Shown here in pieces: positions 2,103-44,972 of a stretch of 45,224 bases of DNA (positions are counted from its first letter, which is position 1; the number at the start of each line of letters is the position of its first letter). The position numbers and the translations under genes were made by a program. The stretch lies in IMG/VR virus record IMGVR_UViG_3300031354_000004, positions 1-45,224 of that record. One strand, given 5' to 3'. Source of the DNA: a virus. Its lineage: Duplodnaviria > Caudoviricetes. The notes under the pieces were generated by a model. That model ran no database searches. It was not told where the DNA came from and saw only the letters and a list, made by a program, of their open reading frames with translations.

Positions 2103-2428
2103 AAAACAAAACTGAGTCTTACGTGTCCAATGACACTAATTTTTGTCGTATATTTGAACTACCAGACAAATATCCAGAAGGCTTTTTATTTTCGGGCGCC
2201 AAACCAGTAACTTTTCTTCTTATGGATTGGTTTTATCCTATTCCAAGTGAAGACATACGCGGGAAAAAAGTAAAGCCTTGGGCATATTATGCAGAGAGAT
2301 TAAAAACTTTCATCCAGGGCAAATTGTATGCACGCCCCGGAAAAACATATCTCCTAATAACCAACTTTGGAAAATCTTTAATCATAGAAAAAGGAGCAGA
2401 AGATGGCTCTCTGGATAGCTCGCGATAG
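2099..2428 (+). CDS. Hypothetical protein
   Basis: GGAG RBS; ATGA overlap. Confidence 0.7.
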   Translation: MKNKTESYVSNDTNFCRIFELPDKYPEGFLFSGAKPVTFLLMDWFYPIPSEDIRGKKVKPWAYYAERLKTFIQGKLYARPGKTYLLITNFGKSLIIEKGAEDGSLDSSR

Positions 2429-2600
2429 AGATGGATACTTATACATCCATAGGCGAAAACCTACACTTCTTAAAAAGACTGGAATCTTTGAAAGTTTCAC
2501 GACTCCGGAGAATTGCTGGGAGCTTCCTAAGCAAATGCTTCCAGAGGTTACATTCGAGAACTCTCCACAGAGAGTTAAACTTATTAATTTGGGAGCTTAG
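2403..2600 (+). CDS. Hypothetical phage protein (WIARDxDG...PEVTFENSP type)
   Basis: AAGGAG RBS; pattern resembles a common small phage protein family. Confidence 0.7.
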   Translation: MALWIARDRDGYLYIHRRKPTLLKKTGIFESFTTPENCWELPKQMLPEVTFENSPQRVKLINLGA

Positions 2601-2602
2601 AT

Positions 2603-2947
2603 ATGGAAGACAAACAAGACTACGCCATAGATTATTGGACTCGTCTACAAAACTCTGTAAGGCTACTAACTCACTTGGCTTTTAAACGCGCCGCACAAGT
2701 AAGGACGCCTTCTATTGAGTATTGTACAGCGATAGCAGACATACGAATGATAGATAAAATGCTTGTACACAAACTTGCCCGGGCTTACAATATAAAGAAA
2801 TATACCGATCCGCTAGAAGCTGAGATCTTATATCTTAGAGAAAGACTTAAGGATGTAGAGGGCAAATTAGAAAATCAAGAGCGAGCTCAAAAGATCGTAT
2901 CTGGAATTGTAGCCTTACAGAAACTTTTAAAGGAGGATCTCTCATAA
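2603..2947 (+). CDS. Hypothetical protein with C-terminal coiled coil
   Basis: GGGAG RBS; follows upstream gene by 2 nt. Confidence 0.7.
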   Translation: MEDKQDYAIDYWTRLQNSVRLLTHLAFKRAAQVRTPSIEYCTAIADIRMIDKMLVHKLARAYNIKKYTDPLEAEILYLRERLKDVEGKLENQERAQKIVSGIVALQKLLKEDLS

Positions 2948-3130
2948 GGGCGATTATTATAGTAGTGGCAGAAGCGCTTAGTAGAACCTAATTTGCTCCC
3001 TAGGTTCGAAATTCTAAGCGAAAAATAATGCCTGGCTGACATACGATGTCGTAAGGGAAGCTAGCCGCTCTAGCCATCCAGCTTGACGAGGTGCGGGTTC
3101 GAATCCTATCTACTATATAATCGCTCTTAT
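2944..3130 (+). ncRNA. tRNA-like structured RNA with expanded D- and anticodon loops
   Basis: Acceptor-like ATAGTAG(2959-2965)/CTACTAT(3110-3116) extended to about 21 bp; D-stem GCA/TGC; 5-bp TGGCT/AGCCA stem; GGTTCGAATCC T-loop at 3096-3106. Confidence 0.65.
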
Positions 3131-3146
3131 AAGGGATCCTTTCCCT

Positions 3147-3208
3147 ACAAAGGAGCACCTAAAGTAAGCCCTCTCAAAATCGCTCCTTTGTTTTCTTAAT
3201 TGAGAGGC
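3147..3208 (+). promoter_or_regulatory. Predicted H-type pseudoknot in 5' leader
   Basis: S1 ACAAAGGAGC(3147-3156)/GCTCCTTTGT(3182-3191); loop CCTCTCAA(3170-3177) pairs with TTGAGAGG(3200-3207). Confidence 0.55.
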
Positions 3209-3234
3209 ATCTAAACTCTTTACGGAGATTACAA

Positions 3235-3684
3235 ATGAAAGAACAAATCATCGAAGTTGTTGCGAATGCTAAAAAAGGTGAGAAGGAGAGAAGTATCAAA
3301 GTGCCTCTAATGGTTCCGGAAAGCATTAAAGAAGCGGAAGAAATCTTTGGGGAGAAAGTGGTCTTTGATACTTTTAACGCCCAGCTAATTATTAAATTCC
3401 AAGCATTCGTTCGTGGTCAGCTCGCAGCCGAAGACAATGAGACCGGCCTAGTGAAGAACTCAGAAGAGGAAGTCACAGCCGCTGCGGCCGCCTGGAAACT
3501 TACTGGTGGGAACAGGTCTAAATTGTCTACCAAAGATAAACTGGCTAAATTGTTCTCTGGTATGTCTAAAGAAGAAGTCGAAGCTGCCCTGGCCGATCTG
3601 GATGTCGAGGAGCTCGTCGCTTCTCAAGTCGAGGAAGGCGAGGACGAAGACGAAGGTATCAACGAACCTGAAGACTTCGAATAG
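3235..3684 (+). CDS. Hypothetical protein with long acidic C-terminus
   Basis: GGAG RBS; 149 aa; D/E-rich tail. Confidence 0.8.
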   Translation: MKEQIIEVVANAKKGEKERSIKVPLMVPESIKEAEEIFGEKVVFDTFNAQLIIKFQAFVRGQLAAEDNETGLVKNSEEEVTAAAAAWKLTGGNRSKLSTKDKLAKLFSGMSKEEVEAALADLDVEELVASQVEEGEDEDEGINEPEDFE

Positions 3685-3714
3685 TCAAAAATCCTGGAAG
3701 AATAAATAAACCCT

Positions 3715-3754
3715 GAGGTCTGCGCCCTTCGTAAGGAGCGGCGCATCCTCTTTT
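3715..3754 (+). terminator. Possible intrinsic terminator or processing hairpin
   Basis: GAGG..TGCGCC / GGCGCA.CCTC stem followed by TTTT. Confidence 0.45.
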
Positions 3755-3767
3755 AGAGAGAAAAAGA

Positions 3768-4454
3768 ATGAAAAAAATAACTGAGATGGCTCATGACGAG
3801 ATCATCAAACTTGACCAAGATGACATTAATCGACTTGTCGATCTTGCTTGTGCCGAACAAGGGATTCCGTTACTTCCTGAGCTTTTACCGGAACCGAAGA
3901 AGCCTCATTATGATGACGCTCCAAATGCTTATGAGCTAGCAGGAATTACTTGTAGGACGCGAGATACTGCCGAGGCTATACAAGGGTGTCTTCGTAGCCA
4001 TCAACACGACATTCTGGATCATGAGCATTATGTACGACACAAGAACAATATCTGGGAAATTAAAGAATGCGTATTTGTGCCTAAATCTGAGGAGAAAAAA
4101 CGAGGGGCCGCTATGTATGAGTATCAAGCAGCTCATACTAATTGGCAGGAGGATAGGGCTTTGTACCATCGGATTTCGGAACAACGCGAAAAGCTCGAAC
4201 TCCCAATCGTCGAGATTTGGTCTTTAGCTACACGTAAACAAAGCACTGCCGAATGGATTCAAAGAAAAGCCCAGAAATATCTCGACCTTGCCGAAGGTAA
4301 TATCGATGTTGCTGTGAATTTCCTGACTCAGGCATATCCAGACGAGTTAGCAGAGATAAGTGATATCTTCTCTGCTCATGTATACCTTGAAGAGTTAGTC
4401 ACTAGACAAGAATGGAAAGAGAATAATGAACAATTAAAGGAGGAATCCAAATGA
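3768..4454 (+). CDS. Hypothetical phage protein
   Basis: 228-aa ORF coupled to the next gene. Confidence 0.8.
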   Translation: MKKITEMAHDEIIKLDQDDINRLVDLACAEQGIPLLPELLPEPKKPHYDDAPNAYELAGITCRTRDTAEAIQGCLRSHQHDILDHEHYVRHKNNIWEIKECVFVPKSEEKKRGAAMYEYQAAHTNWQEDRALYHRISEQREKLELPIVEIWSLATRKQSTAEWIQRKAQKYLDLAEGNIDVAVNFLTQAYPDELAEISDIFSAHVYLEELVTRQEWKENNEQLKEESK

Positions 4455-36898: not shown

Positions 36899-36914
36899 TG
36901 GCACGGTATATGTA
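36899..36914 (+). promoter_or_regulatory. sigma54-type motif with perfect -24 and broken -12
   Basis: TGGCACGGTATATGTA (GT in place of GC). Confidence 0.35.
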
Positions 36915-36919
36915 TATGT

Positions 36920-36935
36920 TGCAATTTCCGTGCCA
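36920..36935 (-). promoter_or_regulatory. sigma54 promoter, consensus match, facing the late operon
   Basis: TGGCACGGAAATTGCA matches TGGCACG-N4-TTGCW. Confidence 0.75.
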
Positions 36936-37119
36936 CTTTTGGGCAAGATGGGAGAAATAAATGGCCTGATCCAATCGGGTCTCCGGTTCAAGGGCTCATG
37001 TGATCATGCCAGGGGTGCCCCTAGATCAAAAAATGTTTCAACATCGCAAATCATATTTGAATAAAAAAAAATATATAAGAACATATAGAAACCCCATACA
37101 TATCAAACATATGCATTTA

Positions 37120-37135
37120 TGCAAGTCCCATGCCA
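37120..37135 (-). promoter_or_regulatory. sigma54-type -24/-12 motif
   Basis: TGGCATGGGACTTGCA on the - strand. Confidence 0.6.
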
Positions 37136-37373
37136 TATTAGAAAAGTGAACATTTGGACACCCCAAAAACACGCTTTTTCACAAAAAACCCCATAATTTC
37201 AAACACCTACGCCCGGTGAACATATGGGACCCCCAGCATGAACACATGAGCCCTTGAACCAGGGAACCAAAGACCCAATGGTTCAAAATATGCATTCCAA
37301 GCAGGCCCGGCAGATTCTTCCCAAATGGGCATTTATTGCCGCCAAAACAGGCAAAATATGCCATTTCTCCCAT

Positions 37374-37389
37374 TGGCACACCTTATGCA
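37374..37389 (+). promoter_or_regulatory. sigma54-type -24/-12 motif
   Basis: TGGCACACCTTATGCA. Confidence 0.5.
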
Positions 37390-37463
37390 TTACCTTGGAA
37401 AAAACGCCCAAAAAACTCAAGCATTTCAACGCATTACGAAAAAATGTGTCCGTTTTTGTCCTT

Positions 37464-37479
37464 TGGCACCCACATTGCA
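37464..37479 (+). promoter_or_regulatory. sigma54 promoter facing the early operon (predicted +1 near 37490)
   Basis: TTGGCACCCACATTGCA; a 14-bp leader stem begins 7 nt after the predicted start. Confidence 0.7.
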
Positions 37480-37496
37480 ACATATATACATGACTC

Positions 37497-38677: not shown

Positions 38678-38899
38678 ATGAAACTTCTTGCACAAGTCCT
38701 CAGGGAGGCCGCGGCGATCCGTGAAGCCTCCTTCGACGAAGAAAAAGGATCGTATAGACTACCTGATCCTGAGGCAGTAAAAGTATCCATCAAGCGTCTC
38801 GGATACGATGACCGCTATCTATTCCCAGCAACCTTGATGATTTATCACTGGAACGATTGCATGGCCTGGATTGATTCTGTCCTAGGAGAAAGAAAATGA
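38678..38899 (+). CDS. Hypothetical early protein
   Basis: Same TATCTTTGGGAGACA leader. Confidence 0.75.
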   Translation: MKLLAQVLREAAAIREASFDEEKGSYRLPDPEAVKVSIKRLGYDDRYLFPATLMIYHWNDCMAWIDSVLGERK

Positions 38900-39300
38900 C
38901 CGAACTCGAAGCATTAGAAAAGTCTGTAGTTTTATGGACAGTCTTAGTAGAGCGCTTATCAGCCTTGCAAACTACAGAGATAGAAGGGCTTGACGAACAC
39001 GATTTAACTCGCTTAAAAGAAACCATAGATCTAGGCATTCGGAATTGTGCCTGGCGTTGTTACCTATGCGAGTTTTTTACTGTCGCTTATGACTTCGATA
39101 GCGATCCTACAGACGTAAACTGTAATGCTTGCTGCATCTCCGCCGATTGTGGTGAGTGTAATATAGACGAAGACAATCAATTCACAGAACTAACTAAGTA
39201 TGGCAACTCAAGAATCAAAAAACTTCGTGCTGCGAATCGTATGCTTCGATCTATGAAAAAGCGGCGATCGGAGCTTCAAAAGCAGGAGACCCAAAAATGA
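38896..39300 (+). CDS. Cys-rich early protein, paralog type A
   Basis: ELEALEKS..LW...CYLC...C..CC....C..C...LRAANRMLR. Confidence 0.8.
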   Translation: MTELEALEKSVVLWTVLVERLSALQTTEIEGLDEHDLTRLKETIDLGIRNCAWRCYLCEFFTVAYDFDSDPTDVNCNACCISADCGECNIDEDNQFTELTKYGNSRIKKLRAANRMLRSMKKRRSELQKQETQK

Positions 39301-39455
39301 AACTACTCTTCGACCTTCGAGACTCTGAAGGAAACATCCTTCGTACGCGTCTCATACACTCAAAACTAGTCCGAAACTTAAACCTAATCGAAATGCTGGT
39401 GAAATCCAACACGCGATGGTACAAGGTTGACGTTGATAATCAAGTTGACGGCTAG
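39297..39455 (+). CDS. Small hypothetical protein (52 aa; not in ORF track)
   Basis: GGAG RBS; ATGA overlap; MKLLFDLRDSEGNILRTRL... Confidence 0.55.
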   Translation: MKLLFDLRDSEGNILRTRLIHSKLVRNLNLIEMLVKSNTRWYKVDVDNQVDG

Positions 39456-39484
39456 CCACTAATCCAATAAAGGAGGAAAATAAC

Positions 39485-39697
39485 ATGCCTACTGAAGAAA
39501 CCAGAAACACTAAAGAATGGAAAGATAGCCTGGACAAGGTACAAAAGTTCTTTGATAAAGTCGTAGAAGCTAATAAGTTATTTCATATCGAGGCAACCGA
39601 CTGTGATTACTATGAATTATTTGGCCGTCTTGAGGCACTTTCAGATAACCTAATAAGCGCTCGCGTAGCTCTAGGAAATCTAACAAAGACCCTATAA
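39485..39697 (+). CDS. Hypothetical protein
   Basis: AAGGAGG RBS. Confidence 0.75.
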   Translation: MPTEETRNTKEWKDSLDKVQKFFDKVVEANKLFHIEATDCDYYELFGRLEALSDNLISARVALGNLTKTL

Positions 39698-39726
39698 AAT
39701 CCCCAATGAGAGCTCTCTAAGGAGAC

Positions 39727-39775
39727 TCTCTCAGGTTGCACAAAAATTGTGCGGCCTGAGAGGCTTTTCTTTGTT
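39727..39775 (+). terminator. Intrinsic terminator-like hairpin with a competing upstream helix
   Basis: About 16-bp stem 39728-39743/39747-39762 followed by CTTTTCTTTGTT; TGAGAG(39707-39712) can pair with its 5' strand. Confidence 0.6.
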
Positions 39776-39819
39776 GCCTCTTTTTCGTAAAAACTTTTTC
39801 TTTGGGAGAAAAAAAAAAG

Positions 39820-40197
39820 ATGAAAAAACTTACAAGAACAAAAGCCGAGACCGTACAAGAGCATCGAAAGCTCTGGAAGCGGATTGCAAAAGACTCGCTT
39901 GCTGCGAAGCTGGAACTTAGCGGTGTGATAAATAACTGTTATTTTTGTCACTATACTGTGGAGCGTCGAGAAGGTCGGGTTATATTGGATAACGGTTGGC
40001 TATATTATCCAAGACGCATAGACTGCAAACGTTTCTGTCCCGGACTTTGGAAAGATGCTGCTGGTCGTATACTTAGCAAATGTGTATGTTTTGGCTCTTC
40101 ATATTATTTATGGGCCTTTTGCTCCTCGGATAAGGCAAAAGACTACGCTTTAGAAGTAGCAAACATTGAGATTCGAAGGGAGAAAAAAGATGACTAA
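39820..40197 (+). CDS. Cys-rich early protein, paralog type B
   Basis: HRKLWKRIA...NNCYFCHY...CKRFCPGLW...C...Y.LW...ANIEIR. Confidence 0.8.
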   Translation: MKKLTRTKAETVQEHRKLWKRIAKDSLAAKLELSGVINNCYFCHYTVERREGRVILDNGWLYYPRRIDCKRFCPGLWKDAAGRILSKCVCFGSSYYLWAFCSSDKAKDYALEVANIEIRREKKDD

Positions 40198-40408
40198 AAA
40201 ACACAAACATATAGATCTATCCACAAAGACTTGCGCGCATCGAGATTGTTCGAAGCGCCTGAAACAGCGTCTTGTGGAAAAAAAACCCACAGTGAGCCTT
40301 TGCTACCTGCACTATAGAGAGCAGGAAGCAGGACGAAGTCACTTCATCGATATGCAGCCGCGAAAGAAACGAATCAAGGCAGGGTTGCCTGTCAGGGATT
40401 ATGTATAA
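40190..40408 (+). CDS. Small basic Cys/His (Zn-binding) protein
   Basis: CAHRDC...CYLH; GGGAG RBS. Confidence 0.7.
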   Translation: MTKKHKHIDLSTKTCAHRDCSKRLKQRLVEKKPTVSLCYLHYREQEAGRSHFIDMQPRKKRIKAGLPVRDYV

Positions 40409-40417
40409 GGAGACAAA

Positions 40418-41122
40418 ATGACAGAAATAAGTAAGGAAGTCGAACTTGAAGCGTTGAATAGGTCTATTGCTCTTTGGACGCCCCTGATTACAGAACTCCA
40501 GGCAATGGACGAGGCTACTCTTAATGAGCTAGAGGAGTATGATATTCAAACAATTAAGGAGCTTATAGATCCTGAGGTAGCAATACGGATTTGGAACTGT
40601 TATTTATGCGCAATGTTTTGGAACGGTACTATTGGGGTAGATTGTGAGCGTTGTTGCGTGGGCATCGCCTGTGGGCCTTGTAAGGATGACGACTTTAACG
40701 AGTATAAGATACTGGTAAACCCAGCGAGCCTTCGTATAAAAAGACTCCGCGCCGCAAATCGAATACTACGAGCGATGAAAGCAAGAAGGAAGCAACTTCA
40801 ATCGGAGGTTGCCTTTCGATTGCATCAAAAGATGTGGCGAGAGCTTGCGGAGACTGGGCATGATAGAAAGCCTTGGTTGAAGGGCGTAAGGAACAATTGC
40901 TATCTCTGTCAGTATGTAGTAGACAAGGCTGGTAAGTTACAAGACGACATATGTCGTAAACACTGCCCTGCGATATGGCCGATTAAAAGTGAACGAACGT
41001 ATTGGGCGGCCCCTTGTGAAGAGTCATATTACGGTCTTTGGCGAGATAGTTGCTTTCCTGACGACAGGCAAAAACTAGCCAAAAAGATCGCAAACTTAGA
41101 ATATCGAAAGGAGGCGCGATGA
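40418..41122 (+). CDS. Cys-rich early protein, fusion of type A and type B domains
   Basis: N-half matches 38896..39300; C-half matches 39820..40197. Confidence 0.8.
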   Translation: MTEISKEVELEALNRSIALWTPLITELQAMDEATLNELEEYDIQTIKELIDPEVAIRIWNCYLCAMFWNGTIGVDCERCCVGIACGPCKDDDFNEYKILVNPASLRIKRLRAANRILRAMKARRKQLQSEVAFRLHQKMWRELAETGHDRKPWLKGVRNNCYLCQYVVDKAGKLQDDICRKHCPAIWPIKSERTYWAAPCEESYYGLWRDSCFPDDRQKLAKKIANLEYRKEAR

Positions 41123-41493
41123 AAAAGCTCACAAGGACAAAACGCGAAGCTATACGCAAACATAGGAAATACTGGAAAAGGATTGCGAATGAGACACCCT
41201 ACAGGCCTAAGCCCTCGTCATCTGACGTAATCAACGATTGCTATTTTTGCCATTATACTGTGGAACGCCAAGAAGGGAGAATCGTAGAGAAATCAGAATG
41301 GATTAAACCTCATTACAAGTCGTGTGTTAAATTTTGCCCCGGGCTCTGGAAAGACCCTGAGGGGTTGGTTCTTAACTCTTGCGAAGAACAAAGTTCCTTA
41401 TATTCTTTATGGTCGGCTAGCGTTAATCAGTTACTATCCACTCGTTATGCCTTGGCAATTGCGAACATAGAAATTAGAAAGGAGACACGATGA
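41119..41493 (+). CDS. Cys-rich early protein, paralog type B
   Basis: MKKLTRTK, CYFCHYTVER.EGR, FCPGLWKD, ANIEIR shared with 39820..40197. Confidence 0.8.
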   Translation: MKKLTRTKREAIRKHRKYWKRIANETPYRPKPSSSDVINDCYFCHYTVERQEGRIVEKSEWIKPHYKSCVKFCPGLWKDPEGLVLNSCEEQSSLYSLWSASVNQLLSTRYALAIANIEIRKETR

Positions 41494-44084: not shown

Positions 44085-44851
44085 ACAAACCTAAATATTG
44101 GGCATGTACATGCTGTTCAGAAAACTGTCTGTTAGTAACATCTGGAGAACTGCCCGCAGCTTGTATATTAGACCCAGACGATACCGATGAGGTCCCTTGG
44201 AGAGAAATTACCCGCGATGAATTCCAACGTCGAGACGACCTTGTAAATGACCCATCTTATATTGCCCAAACAATGGGCGATGTTCCTTTGAAAGAAACTC
44301 GAAAGCCGGAAGCAACTTTTTTAGATTATGTATTAACGTTGCAGGAGAGGCAATTCTCTAAAGTACGCCAGCGTGAGATGGCCGGATGGCCTAAAATACC
44401 AGAGGCTGACTTGAGAAGACACCTTGAACGCCCAGAGAAATTTTGGGCTGGTGTTGATCCGGCTGGTGAGGATGGGGATAGCCAGGTAGCAATTGATTAC
44501 GAATCTACGTTAAAGGATCACAGTTCTCGCTTTTTTGACCGCCTTACAAGAGAAGGCATACCTATAGTTACAAATTGGCCCACGCGTCAATGGATAGATA
44601 AAGAATACGAAGGTATGCTAGACGAGAGTGCTCAGCGGCTTGACCAGCATATTAATGCGGCAATTAACTCTAAATCTAGAGGCGTGGTGACTAAACGTTG
44701 GGCTGTTCCAGGGCTAGTTCTTAGTGATGAGATAAGATATGCTATAGACGAAGGTTTTGAGCAGATGTACAAAGCTTTTGAGACTAGCCGTATCAATTGG
44801 CTTATGCGAGACTGGCGACTAGAATTTATAGGCGAAGACCCTAACGACTAG
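44081..44851 (+). CDS. Hypothetical protein with Cys-rich N-terminus
   Basis: AAGGAG RBS; CTCC..C...C. Confidence 0.75.
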   Translation: MNKPKYWACTCCSENCLLVTSGELPAACILDPDDTDEVPWREITRDEFQRRDDLVNDPSYIAQTMGDVPLKETRKPEATFLDYVLTLQERQFSKVRQREMAGWPKIPEADLRRHLERPEKFWAGVDPAGEDGDSQVAIDYESTLKDHSSRFFDRLTREGIPIVTNWPTRQWIDKEYEGMLDESAQRLDQHINAAINSKSRGVVTKRWAVPGLVLSDEIRYAIDEGFEQMYKAFETSRINWLMRDWRLEFIGEDPND

Positions 44852-44854
44852 CAA

Positions 44855-44948
44855 GGGAAGGATAAGCTGAAACAGCAACGAAGCATAGAAACTCATAGTT
44901 AAGAGCGCTCGTGGCTATGTGGACACTGTTAGTAAGCTTATCCTTCTT
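44855..44948 (+). ncRNA. Rod-shaped structured RNA candidate upstream of the tRNA
   Basis: GAAGGATAAGCT(44857-44868)/AGCTTATCCTTC(44935-44946); AACAG/CTGTT; CATAGTTA/TGGCTATG. Confidence 0.5.
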
Positions 44949-44972
44949 CTGGTATTCATTAGGATACTAATT

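What the first reader, a model, noticed from the sequence alone, without database searches (positions are those of the whole stretch)
2944..3130. tRNA-shaped RNA with D-loop and anticodon loop replaced by structured inserts, clamped by a 21-bp stem
Seen: canonical tRNA spacing. A 7-bp acceptor ATAGTAG/CTACTAT is followed by TG and a D-arm whose ends TGGCAGA...TAATGC are the same as in this phage's tRNA-Ser. One nt later come a 5-bp stem TGGCT/AGCCA, a 16-nt variable region and GGTTCGAATCC. The D-loop holds a roughly 45-nt hairpin (CGCTTAG/CTAAGCG, GAACCTA/TAGGTTC) and the anticodon loop is 34 nt (GACAT/ATGTC hairpin). The T-stem is weak, no CCA is encoded, and the acceptor extends into ATAAGGGCGATTATTATAGTAG/CTACTATATAATCGCTCTTAT. 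Inference: a non-decoding tRNA mimic or a new ncRNA class. Possible roles are a decoy for anticodon nucleases or tRNA-sensing defences, a processing signal, or a tRNA carrying unusual introns.
Basis: partly seen in the sequence, partly recalled or inferred. Interest (0 to 1): 0.8.

Follow-up and report, generated by a model that had tools for sequence, protein, structure and literature searches.

The report
Clamped leucine-tRNA-framed phage RNA cassette
Between two genes of an uncultured salt-marsh phage lies a folded RNA built on a leucine-tRNA frame with no codon-reading arm, closed by a long helix that a related phage shares; a host enzyme likely cuts that helix to free the RNA, and its inserted hairpins rather than its weakening tRNA shape are likely the working part.

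Summary
The structure is real (MFE z -3.8; no ARAGORN or Rfam hit), but three details change. (1) The frame is leucine-type (A15, U48, A73), not serine-type. It resembles 34 distinct phage RNAs found here by pattern scan and T5 RNA1, all with a tRNA upper body and inserts in place of a decoding arm. (3) The clamp runs at least 22 columns. It is conserved, with 2 double and 3 single consistent changes, at the same place in a related phage, where it encloses an RNA with no tRNA frame. A 97.5%-identical strain differs inside the element at only 3 bases, and all three repair the V and T stems, so this copy's tRNA shape is eroding. It also lacks G18G19. None of the 34 look-alikes is clamped. Best reading: a likely RNase III release cassette that frees a stable ~185-nt cargo RNA and leaves a protected 5' end (hairpin plus conserved pseudoknot) on the next gene's mRNA. 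It is not a spliced tRNA. No expression data. New variant of a known but unexplained kind.

The parts
2603..2947 (+). Upstream 114-aa ORF; its last codons and stop overlap the 5' clamp arm. The relative has an unrelated ORF here whose stop abuts the clamp.
2936..2957 (+). 5' arm of the outer clamp (22 columns; one C.A mismatch at 2943/3131)
   Evidence: against L012:8460-8481, 15 identical pairs, 2 double changes, 3 single consistent changes, 1 mismatch in each genome; 17 of 22 bases identical
2958..2958 (+). Single bulged U between clamp and acceptor (2957 or 2958); a bulged U sits at the same place in L012
2959..2965 (+). Acceptor stem, 5' strand (A1-U72 pair)
   Evidence: probability 0.8-1.0; covariance-model match begins here
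2966..2973 (+). U8-G9, D-stem 5' strand, A14 and A15 (leucine-type). Alternatively pairs with 3069-3076.
2975..3020 (+). D-slot insert: two-stem hairpin. Its 5' arm resembles the family D-loop (7 of 8) and its 3' arm holds a second T-loop-like word at 3003.
3021..3032 (+). A-rich linker (no G18G19) and D-stem 3' strand
3032..3080 (+). Anticodon-slot insert; favoured helix 3032-3037/3059-3064 with an inner hairpin; several near-equal folds
3081..3092 (+). Variable-arm hairpin ending in U48; U.G at 3083 here, C-G in the sister strain
3093..3109 (+). T arm; C.A and G.U here where the sister strain and the family consensus have C-G and A-U
3110..3117 (+). Acceptor 3' strand and discriminator A73; no encoded CCA
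3117..3138 (+). 3' arm of the outer clamp; best-scoring predicted RNase III cuts after 2945 and after 3130
3132..3146 (+). Small hairpin that competes with the outer clamp pairs and could form after a cut; present in L012 too
3147..3208 (+). Predicted H-type pseudoknot (stem 1 3147-3156/3182-3191; stem 2 3170-3177/3200-3207); also drawable in L012 with one double change in stem 2; both sister-strain changes fall in loop 1
3235..3684 (+). Downstream 149-aa ORF with an acidic tail; phage-only family, no Pfam, PHROG or fold assignment

Best explanation
The stretch is a leucine-tRNA-type frame without a decoding arm, holding two inserted hairpin domains and closed by a 22-column helix that a related phage shares, and host RNase III likely cuts that helix to release a stable RNA of about 185 nt whose inserts, not its tRNA shape, are likely the working part. 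Shown: the frame, the inserts, the covarying clamp, the downstream hairpin and pseudoknot drawable in both phages, and the loss of T and V pairing relative to the sister strain. Inferred: (1) the element is transcribed in the long rightward early/middle mRNA (no promoter above chance in 2400-4000); (2) RNase III cuts near the outer mismatch (after 2945 and after 3130), leaving a 19-bp closing stem that protects both ends without RNase P or CCA addition; (3) the freed 3' arm refolds into a 5'-terminal hairpin that, with the pseudoknot, stabilises the mRNA of the 149-aa gene; (4) because the clamp now supplies excision and end protection, the tRNA frame is redundant and drifts; (5) the released RNA most likely acts in trans as a ligand or decoy for a host RNA-binding protein through its inserts. 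Step 5 is the weakest, about 0.3 on its own.
For: Clamp conserved at the same place in L011/L012 (identical over the element), with 2 double and 3 single consistent changes and G.U pairs, i.e. selection on an RNA helix. It scores -19.7 on the E. coli in vivo RNase III pair matrix (best listed real target -19.45, strict cut-off -25.5); the relative's best site (-21.0) is one column away. Two helical turns is the typical substrate length (PMC1540722). DicF is a 190-nt prophage RNA whose 5' end is made by RNase III from a polycistronic mRNA. The relative's clamp encloses a 128-nt RNA with no T arm and no match to the frame model. All 3 sister-strain differences in the element lie in the 29 nt of V and T arms and pair better there; 0 lie in the other 174 nt. 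The family has C-G in 29 of 33 and A-U in 31 of 33 at those two T-stem pairs, so this copy is the derived one. G18G19, needed for leucylation in E. coli (PMC9976931), is absent, though present in 30 of 34 look-alikes.
Against: Only one independent relative carries the clamp. Any good long duplex scores high on the matrix: the inverted repeat near 37 kb gives -20.1. The matrix is for E. coli and the host is unknown. The interiors of the two cassettes do not align better than shuffles (1195 of 2000 global, 546 of 2000 local, 110 of 2000 for the 5' part), so a shared cargo is unproven. Interior-only folds are weak (z -1.2 here, -2.2 in the sister strain, -1.25 in L012). The zero-change stretch also covers 200 nt of upstream coding sequence, so it need not reflect selection on the inserts. 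The sister strain keeps a perfect T arm, A73 and U48, which argues that the frame still matters there. No partner protein was identified.
Confidence: 0.5

Rival explanations
1. Only the clamp, hairpin and pseudoknot matter, as an mRNA cutting and stabilising site. The enclosed RNA is a decaying relic of a leucine-framed RNA gene and does nothing.
For: The interior is unalignable with the relative; interior z only -1.2; 3 weakening changes in V and T arms; G18G19 lost; signs of refolded D-loop and T-loop remnants in the insert.
Against: The insert hairpin is fully paired. Both phages keep a multibranched interior with a first hairpin of about 45 nt ending in the same 8 bases and a second hairpin after it (noticed after the fact). 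No sister-strain change in the inserts.
Confidence: 0.24
2. The tRNA frame is the working part: the RNA is trimmed to tRNA ends, gains CCA, and acts as a charged or uncharged tRNA-Leu mimic that draws off a tRNA-cutting or tRNA-sensing defence.
For: A15, U48, A73 and a 7+5-bp acceptor/T stack are kept in the sister strain. E. coli LeuRS does not need the anticodon arm. The older RNase III consensus (PMC4357697) fits best, among 35 registers per arm, with cuts exactly at the acceptor ends (6 of 8 and 7 of 8), and the conserved bulged U would leave a 1-nt discriminator overhang.
Against: No G18G19; T stem probability under 0.1 in this genome; the in vivo matrix scores the acceptor-end site only -28.7 here and -32.4 in L012; in L012 the consensus gives 5 of 8 at that site and a better site elsewhere; the relative's cassette has no frame.
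Confidence: 0.15
3. The whole 2936-3234 region is an uncut cis-acting leader that controls translation of the 149-aa gene, like the T4 gene 32 pseudoknot operator, with the clamped domain as a protein- or ligand-binding part.
For: Pseudoknot 27 nt upstream of the start codon, drawable in both phages; T4 gene 32 precedent (PMC3014915); clamp and pseudoknot stay with the same downstream gene while the upstream gene differs.
Against: No Rfam riboswitch or leader match to E 10; the closed clamp isolates the interior from the ribosome-binding site; distant relatives have the gene without a clamp.
Confidence: 0.08
4. It is a functional tRNA with two introns removed by a splicing endonuclease, for example tRNA-Val(GAC).
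For: A possible 7-nt loop with GAC follows the D stem; oversized phage tRNAs have been read as intron-bearing in Lak phages (10.1101/356790).
Against: Strict BHB-like sites 3 against 3.3 in shuffles, none at a junction; neither single-stranded D-loop segment holds GG; trial excisions gave ARAGORN calls of many isotypes with no single winner; no endonuclease or ligase among the 46 ORFs scanned.
Confidence: 0.03

Closest known systems
Phage T5 RNA1 (GenBank AY543070, 30501-30644, 'tRNA-like stable RNA with unknown functions') and the leucine-framed phage RNAs found
   Same: Acceptor stem, A14-A15, U48, T arm, and a long insert where the anticodon arm should be. 6 of 34 look-alikes also carry a hairpin in the D loop after A15. 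Model scores: T5 RNA1 37.8 bits, sister strain 41.9, this copy 28.6.
   Different: Those keep the D-loop GG (30 of 34) and a full T stem and have free ends (longest acceptor extension 5 bp against 14 here). T5 RNA1 lies in a tRNA cluster; this one lies between two ORFs inside a conserved clamp.
Phage T4 RnaC (species 1 RNA, AF158101 70908-71046; role unknown per PMC3014915 and PMC9697503)
   Same: About 140-nt stable RNA with a terminal stem, two long arms and a canonical T arm before the 3' strand.
   Different: No D-arm motif, only 11.8 bits (E 0.68) with the frame model, in a tRNA cluster, no clamp.
DicF RNA of the E. coli Qin prophage
   Same: A prophage RNA of 190 nt made from a polycistronic mRNA by RNase III; a double cut 130 nt apart is listed in the dicF-dicB region.
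   Different: DicF is a base-pairing sRNA with no tRNA frame; no sequence relation is claimed.
Bacterial tRNA-Leu (Rfam RF00005)
   Same: A73, A15-U48, long variable arm; real tRNA-Leu genes score 33-36 bits with the frame model.
   Different: No anticodon loop, no G18G19, 159 nt, acceptor buried in a long helix; not found by ARAGORN or Rfam.
T4 gene 32 leader pseudoknot
   Same: H-type pseudoknot upstream of an A/U-rich ribosome-binding region.
   Different: The downstream protein has no detectable likeness to gp32; autoregulation is untested.

Membership tests
Canonical tRNA (RF00005) | Detected by ARAGORN or the Rfam tRNA model | tested here: not met
   the sister strain gives only a junk call at a relaxed threshold
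Canonical tRNA (RF00005) | 5-bp anticodon stem with 7-nt loop | tested here: not met
Canonical tRNA (RF00005) | G18G19 in the D loop | tested here: not met
tRNA-Ser identity | G73 (or U73) discriminator; G15-C48 as in this phage's tRNA-Ser | tested here: not met
   A73, A15, U48; identity rules
tRNA-Leu identity (E. coli rules) | A73 and A15-U48 | tested here: met
tRNA-Leu identity (E. coli rules) | G18G19 and A20a for D/T-loop contacts | tested here: not met
T5 RNA1-type leucine-framed phage RNAs | 7-bp acceptor, A15, U48, A73 and T arm around non-decoding inserts | tested here: met
   A15 and the T loop were forced by my search pattern, U48 (34 of 34) and A73 (31 of 34) were not
T5 RNA1-type leucine-framed phage RNAs | D-loop GG kept (30 of 34 look-alikes; common, not universal) | tested here: not met
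   filed as an aberrant derivative, not a typical member
T5 RNA1-type leucine-framed phage RNAs | Common descent distinct from ordinary tRNA-Leu | tested here: inconclusive
   the model scores real tRNA-Leu genes (33-36 bits) above this copy (28.6)
T5 RNA1-type leucine-framed phage RNAs | Accumulates as a stable RNA | not testable with these tools
   needs RNA from infected cells
BHB-spliced intron-containing tRNA | Bulge-helix-bulge at the insert junctions | tested here: not met
RNase III double-cut substrate | About two helical turns of intramolecular duplex | tested here: met
RNase III double-cut substrate | Pair pattern within the range of real targets | tested here: inconclusive
   -19.7 passes the strict cut-off, but a control duplex scores -20.1
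RNase III double-cut substrate | Cleavage with 2-nt 3' overhangs | not testable with these tools
   needs an in vitro or rnc-mutant test
tmRNA, Y RNA, 6S, SRP, riboswitches, ribozymes in Rfam 15 | Match to the family model | tested here: not met

The most novel reading that the evidence does not exclude
The clamp with its conserved bulged U is an RNase III jig that cuts out a tRNA-shaped RNA with exact tRNA ends (5' at acceptor position 1, 3' at the discriminator), bypassing RNase P and 3' trimming. It is a swappable cassette: in this lineage it captured a neighbouring leucine-tRNA frame and loaded its two cargo hairpins into the D and anticodon slots, while the relative still keeps frame (L012:7778-7875) and clamped cargo as two separate genes 600 nt apart.
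Probability: 0.12. Interest if true: 0.82.

Novelty: new variant of a known kind. Interest (0 to 1): 0.5.

Why it matters
T4 RnaC/D and T5 RNA1 have stood as 'stable RNAs of unknown function' for decades. This locus gives natural comparisons for asking what the tRNA frame does: a strain with an intact frame, a strain with a weakened frame, and a relative with the same clamp and no frame. If the frame only serves excision and end protection, a clamp can replace it and attention should move to the inserts. All parts can be tested in vitro with standard enzymes. The scan also shows that leucine-framed RNAs are common in phages and missed by ARAGORN (33 of 34 gave no call).

Tried and rejected
Homologue searches by interior motif (17 loci, only this genome and the L011/L012 contigs are relevant), by V/T-arm word in viral contigs (1 of 1 is this genome) and in bacterial genomes (0), by blastn in cultured phages (0), and by exonuclease in bacterial genomes (0) gave no new copies. 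The first strict pattern gave 8 loci: this element, one leucine-framed RNA (L003) and 6 chance spans in tRNA clusters or beside tRNA genes. The metagenome scan gave this genome, the sister strain and one contig cut 64 nt upstream of the gene. Distant relatives L013, L014, L026, L027 and L029 show no clamp in front of the 149-aa homologue (L014 lacks that region). Sequencing runs: no RNA holder listed. Four of the 8 listed runs were laid; one shows the same three changes as L017 and is not counted as independent. The 149-aa protein: model pLDDT 74, no fold match at E 0.001 in the viral library, best Z 5.2 on helices only, Atlas hits are unnamed viral clusters; a role as RNA partner is untested. 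Resemblances to TPP, SAM-I, glycine, SRP, pistol and HDV-like motifs were recalled from memory and dropped: no Rfam match, and the pseudoknot lacks room for HDV P3. A MITE reading was dropped: G.U pairs are kept and I saw no target duplication by eye. The exact-end RNase III idea was lowered after the in vivo matrix. Paper searches showed no description of the leucine-framed family or of a clamped copy; the library lacks most subscription papers and the older T4/T5 RNA literature, and I did not open the supplements of PMC10690425, whose 10,006 candidates could include this family.

Full report
Setting. The window is a complete 45.1-kb phage genome with 127-nt terminal repeats. It encodes a family A polymerase, Sak4, an exonuclease, portal, terminase and capsid genes and one ordinary tRNA-Ser. 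The 8 listed DNA runs are from salt marsh or wetland. The host is unknown. The element starts at the stop codon of a 114-aa ORF and lies upstream of a 149-aa ORF, in a long run of rightward genes; a sigma-70 scan of 2400-4000 found 2 sites against 2.1 expected.

Observation. The 187 nt fold at z -3.77 and match nothing in ARAGORN or Rfam. The clamp, acceptor and D-slot hairpin are firm (probabilities mostly above 0.9). The proposed anticodon stem is not (about 0.01); 3032-3037 pairs with 3059-3064 instead, and the D stem competes with a second pairing of the same 5' bases (0.5 against 0.35 here, 0.12 against 0.8 in the sister strain). The interior alone is z -1.2.

Sister strain. L017 is 97.5% identical, with 42 differences in 1712 nt. 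Three fall in the element, all in the 29 nt of the V and T arms. Each pairs better in L017 (U.G to C-G, G.U to A-U, C.A to C-G), which lifts the T stem from under 0.1 to 0.9. The other 174 nt have none, but neither do 200 nt of coding sequence upstream, so that is weak evidence.

The frame is leucine-type. An earlier scan note (e1-6107528) pointed to T5 RNA1. I fetched and folded it and ran my own pattern scan of IMG/VR: 58 loci, 43 with a paired acceptor and T stem, 34 distinct after removing duplicates and this element. Of the 34: U48 in 34, A73 in 31, D-loop GG in 30, A1-U72 in 19, encoded CCA in 4, a D-loop hairpin insert in 6, and an ARAGORN call in 1 (L064, probably a false member, left out of the alignment). 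The pattern forced A15 and the T loop, and I filtered on acceptor pairing, so the acceptor covariation is partly circular. The element shares A1-U72, A15, U48 and A73. It lacks the GG, and it alone is clamped (14 bp against at most 5). At the two altered T-stem pairs the family has C-G (29 of 33) and A-U (31 of 33), as in L017, so this copy is the derived one. A model of 33 members finds 2959-3117 at 28.6 bits and L017 at 41.9, T5 RNA1 at 37.8 and true tRNA-Leu genes at 33-36; the window's tRNA-Ser is not listed. The model therefore shows a leucine frame, not a separate descent. In E. coli, leucylation needs A73, A15-U48 and G18G19 but not the anticodon arm (PMC9976931), so typical members could be charged and this one probably could not.

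The clamp. A relative (L011/L012, 67% identical exonuclease) has the same helix at the same place, after an unrelated ORF and before the homologue of the 149-aa gene. Of 22 columns, 15 are the same, 2 change on both sides, 3 change on one side and still pair, and each genome has one mismatch. A bulged U and an inner stem follow in both. The relative's interior (128 nt) has no T arm and no model match. It folds as a junction with two hairpins, the first about 45 nt and ending in the same 8 bases as here, but the alignment is not better than shuffles. The relative carries its single leucine-framed RNA unclamped, 600 nt upstream (55.6 bits). Downstream, both phages have a small hairpin that competes with the outer clamp and a drawable pseudoknot with one double change; both sister-strain differences there fall in a loop. 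That downstream region aligns better than 1978 of 2000 shuffles.

RNase III. The older E. coli consensus fits best with cuts exactly at the acceptor ends (6 of 8 and 7 of 8 among 35 registers per arm); the two arms are complementary, so this is one observation, and a second site at the outer mismatch fits almost as well. The in vivo pair matrix (PMC6212723, Table S4) prefers the outer site: -19.7 here and -21.0 one column away in L012, against -28.7 and -32.4 at the acceptor ends. A control inverted repeat scores -20.1, so the score shows a suitable duplex, not a proven site. The outer cuts would free 2946-3130 with a 19-bp closing stem. DicF is a precedent for a prophage RNA of this size made by RNase III.

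Mechanism. The part under clearest selection is the cutting and protecting machinery: clamp, switch hairpin, pseudoknot. The tRNA frame is real, but it has lost its elbow GG, is weakening in this strain and is absent from the relative's cassette. I read this as a release cassette in which the clamp has taken over the frame's likely job of defining stable ends, and the inserts are the cargo, most likely binding a host protein. A dead relic inside a working mRNA site is the main rival, then a true tRNA mimic. Splicing is unlikely: BHB-like sites are at chance (3 against 3.3) and off the junctions.

Unexplained. The word at 3003-3010 is one of only three such T-loop words in 45 kb, and the opposite arm of that hairpin resembles the family D-loop (40 of 20,000 shuffles). 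The D-slot hairpin may be made of refolded tRNA remnants. The two likenesses are linked by pairing, so they are not independent.

Papers seen. Passages: PMC5389517, PMC3014915, PMC9697503, 10.1101/356790, PMC4357697, PMC10690425, 10.1101/2023.04.14.536235. PMC9976931: passages and section 12. PMC6212723: passages, section 27, supplement part 1. PMC1540722: abstract, introduction, first part of results. Others: search listings only. tRNA numbering, RNase P's use of the D/T elbow and the stabilising effect of 5' hairpins are from my own knowledge.

Verdict. Real structured RNA locus; new variant of a known, unexplained kind; interest 0.5.

Noticed in passing
window 44840-44963: Long imperfect hairpin between a stop codon and tRNA-Ser; part of its 3' arm is kept in L012. 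A possible second processing stem (matrix score -24.0).
   Followed up: partly
L012 6737-6816: The relative's tRNA-Ser(TGA) lacks the 3' strand of the D stem that the window's copy has; a D-truncated class II tRNA.
   Followed up: no
L012 8655-8740: A rod with a 12-bp stem and a central bubble sits inside loop 1 of the pseudoknot, where the window has 11 nt; 6S-like in outline, no Rfam match.
   Followed up: partly
L029 11730-12016: Two tandem expanded tRNA-shaped RNAs in a distant relative: one with acceptor, three arms and T arm (z -4.2), one leucine-framed with a long insert (73.9 bits).
   Followed up: partly
L013 3170-3285 and L014 255-360: A hairpin plus a long rod with shared sequence follows the 149-aa homologue in two distant relatives; a probable separate conserved RNA. 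The window has a similar short hairpin at about 3733-3747.
   Followed up: no
window 36908-37491: Two nested long inverted repeats (43 and 28 nt arms) at the turn between the two gene blocks; a similar repeat lies at L012 324-583. Possibly origin, packaging or promoter region.
   Followed up: no
window 38896-41493: Two pairs of related small Cys-rich ORFs (38896 and 40418; 39802 and 41119) with no PHROG match.
   Followed up: no
L050-L104: At least 33 distinct leucine-framed, non-decoding RNAs in IMG/VR phages, many with one shared acceptor sequence; missed by ARAGORN. The pattern caught only a subset.
   Followed up: partly
window 3147-3197: Stem 1 of the pseudoknot is followed by a U-rich run here but not in L012, so a terminator role is possible but not conserved.
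   Followed up: no
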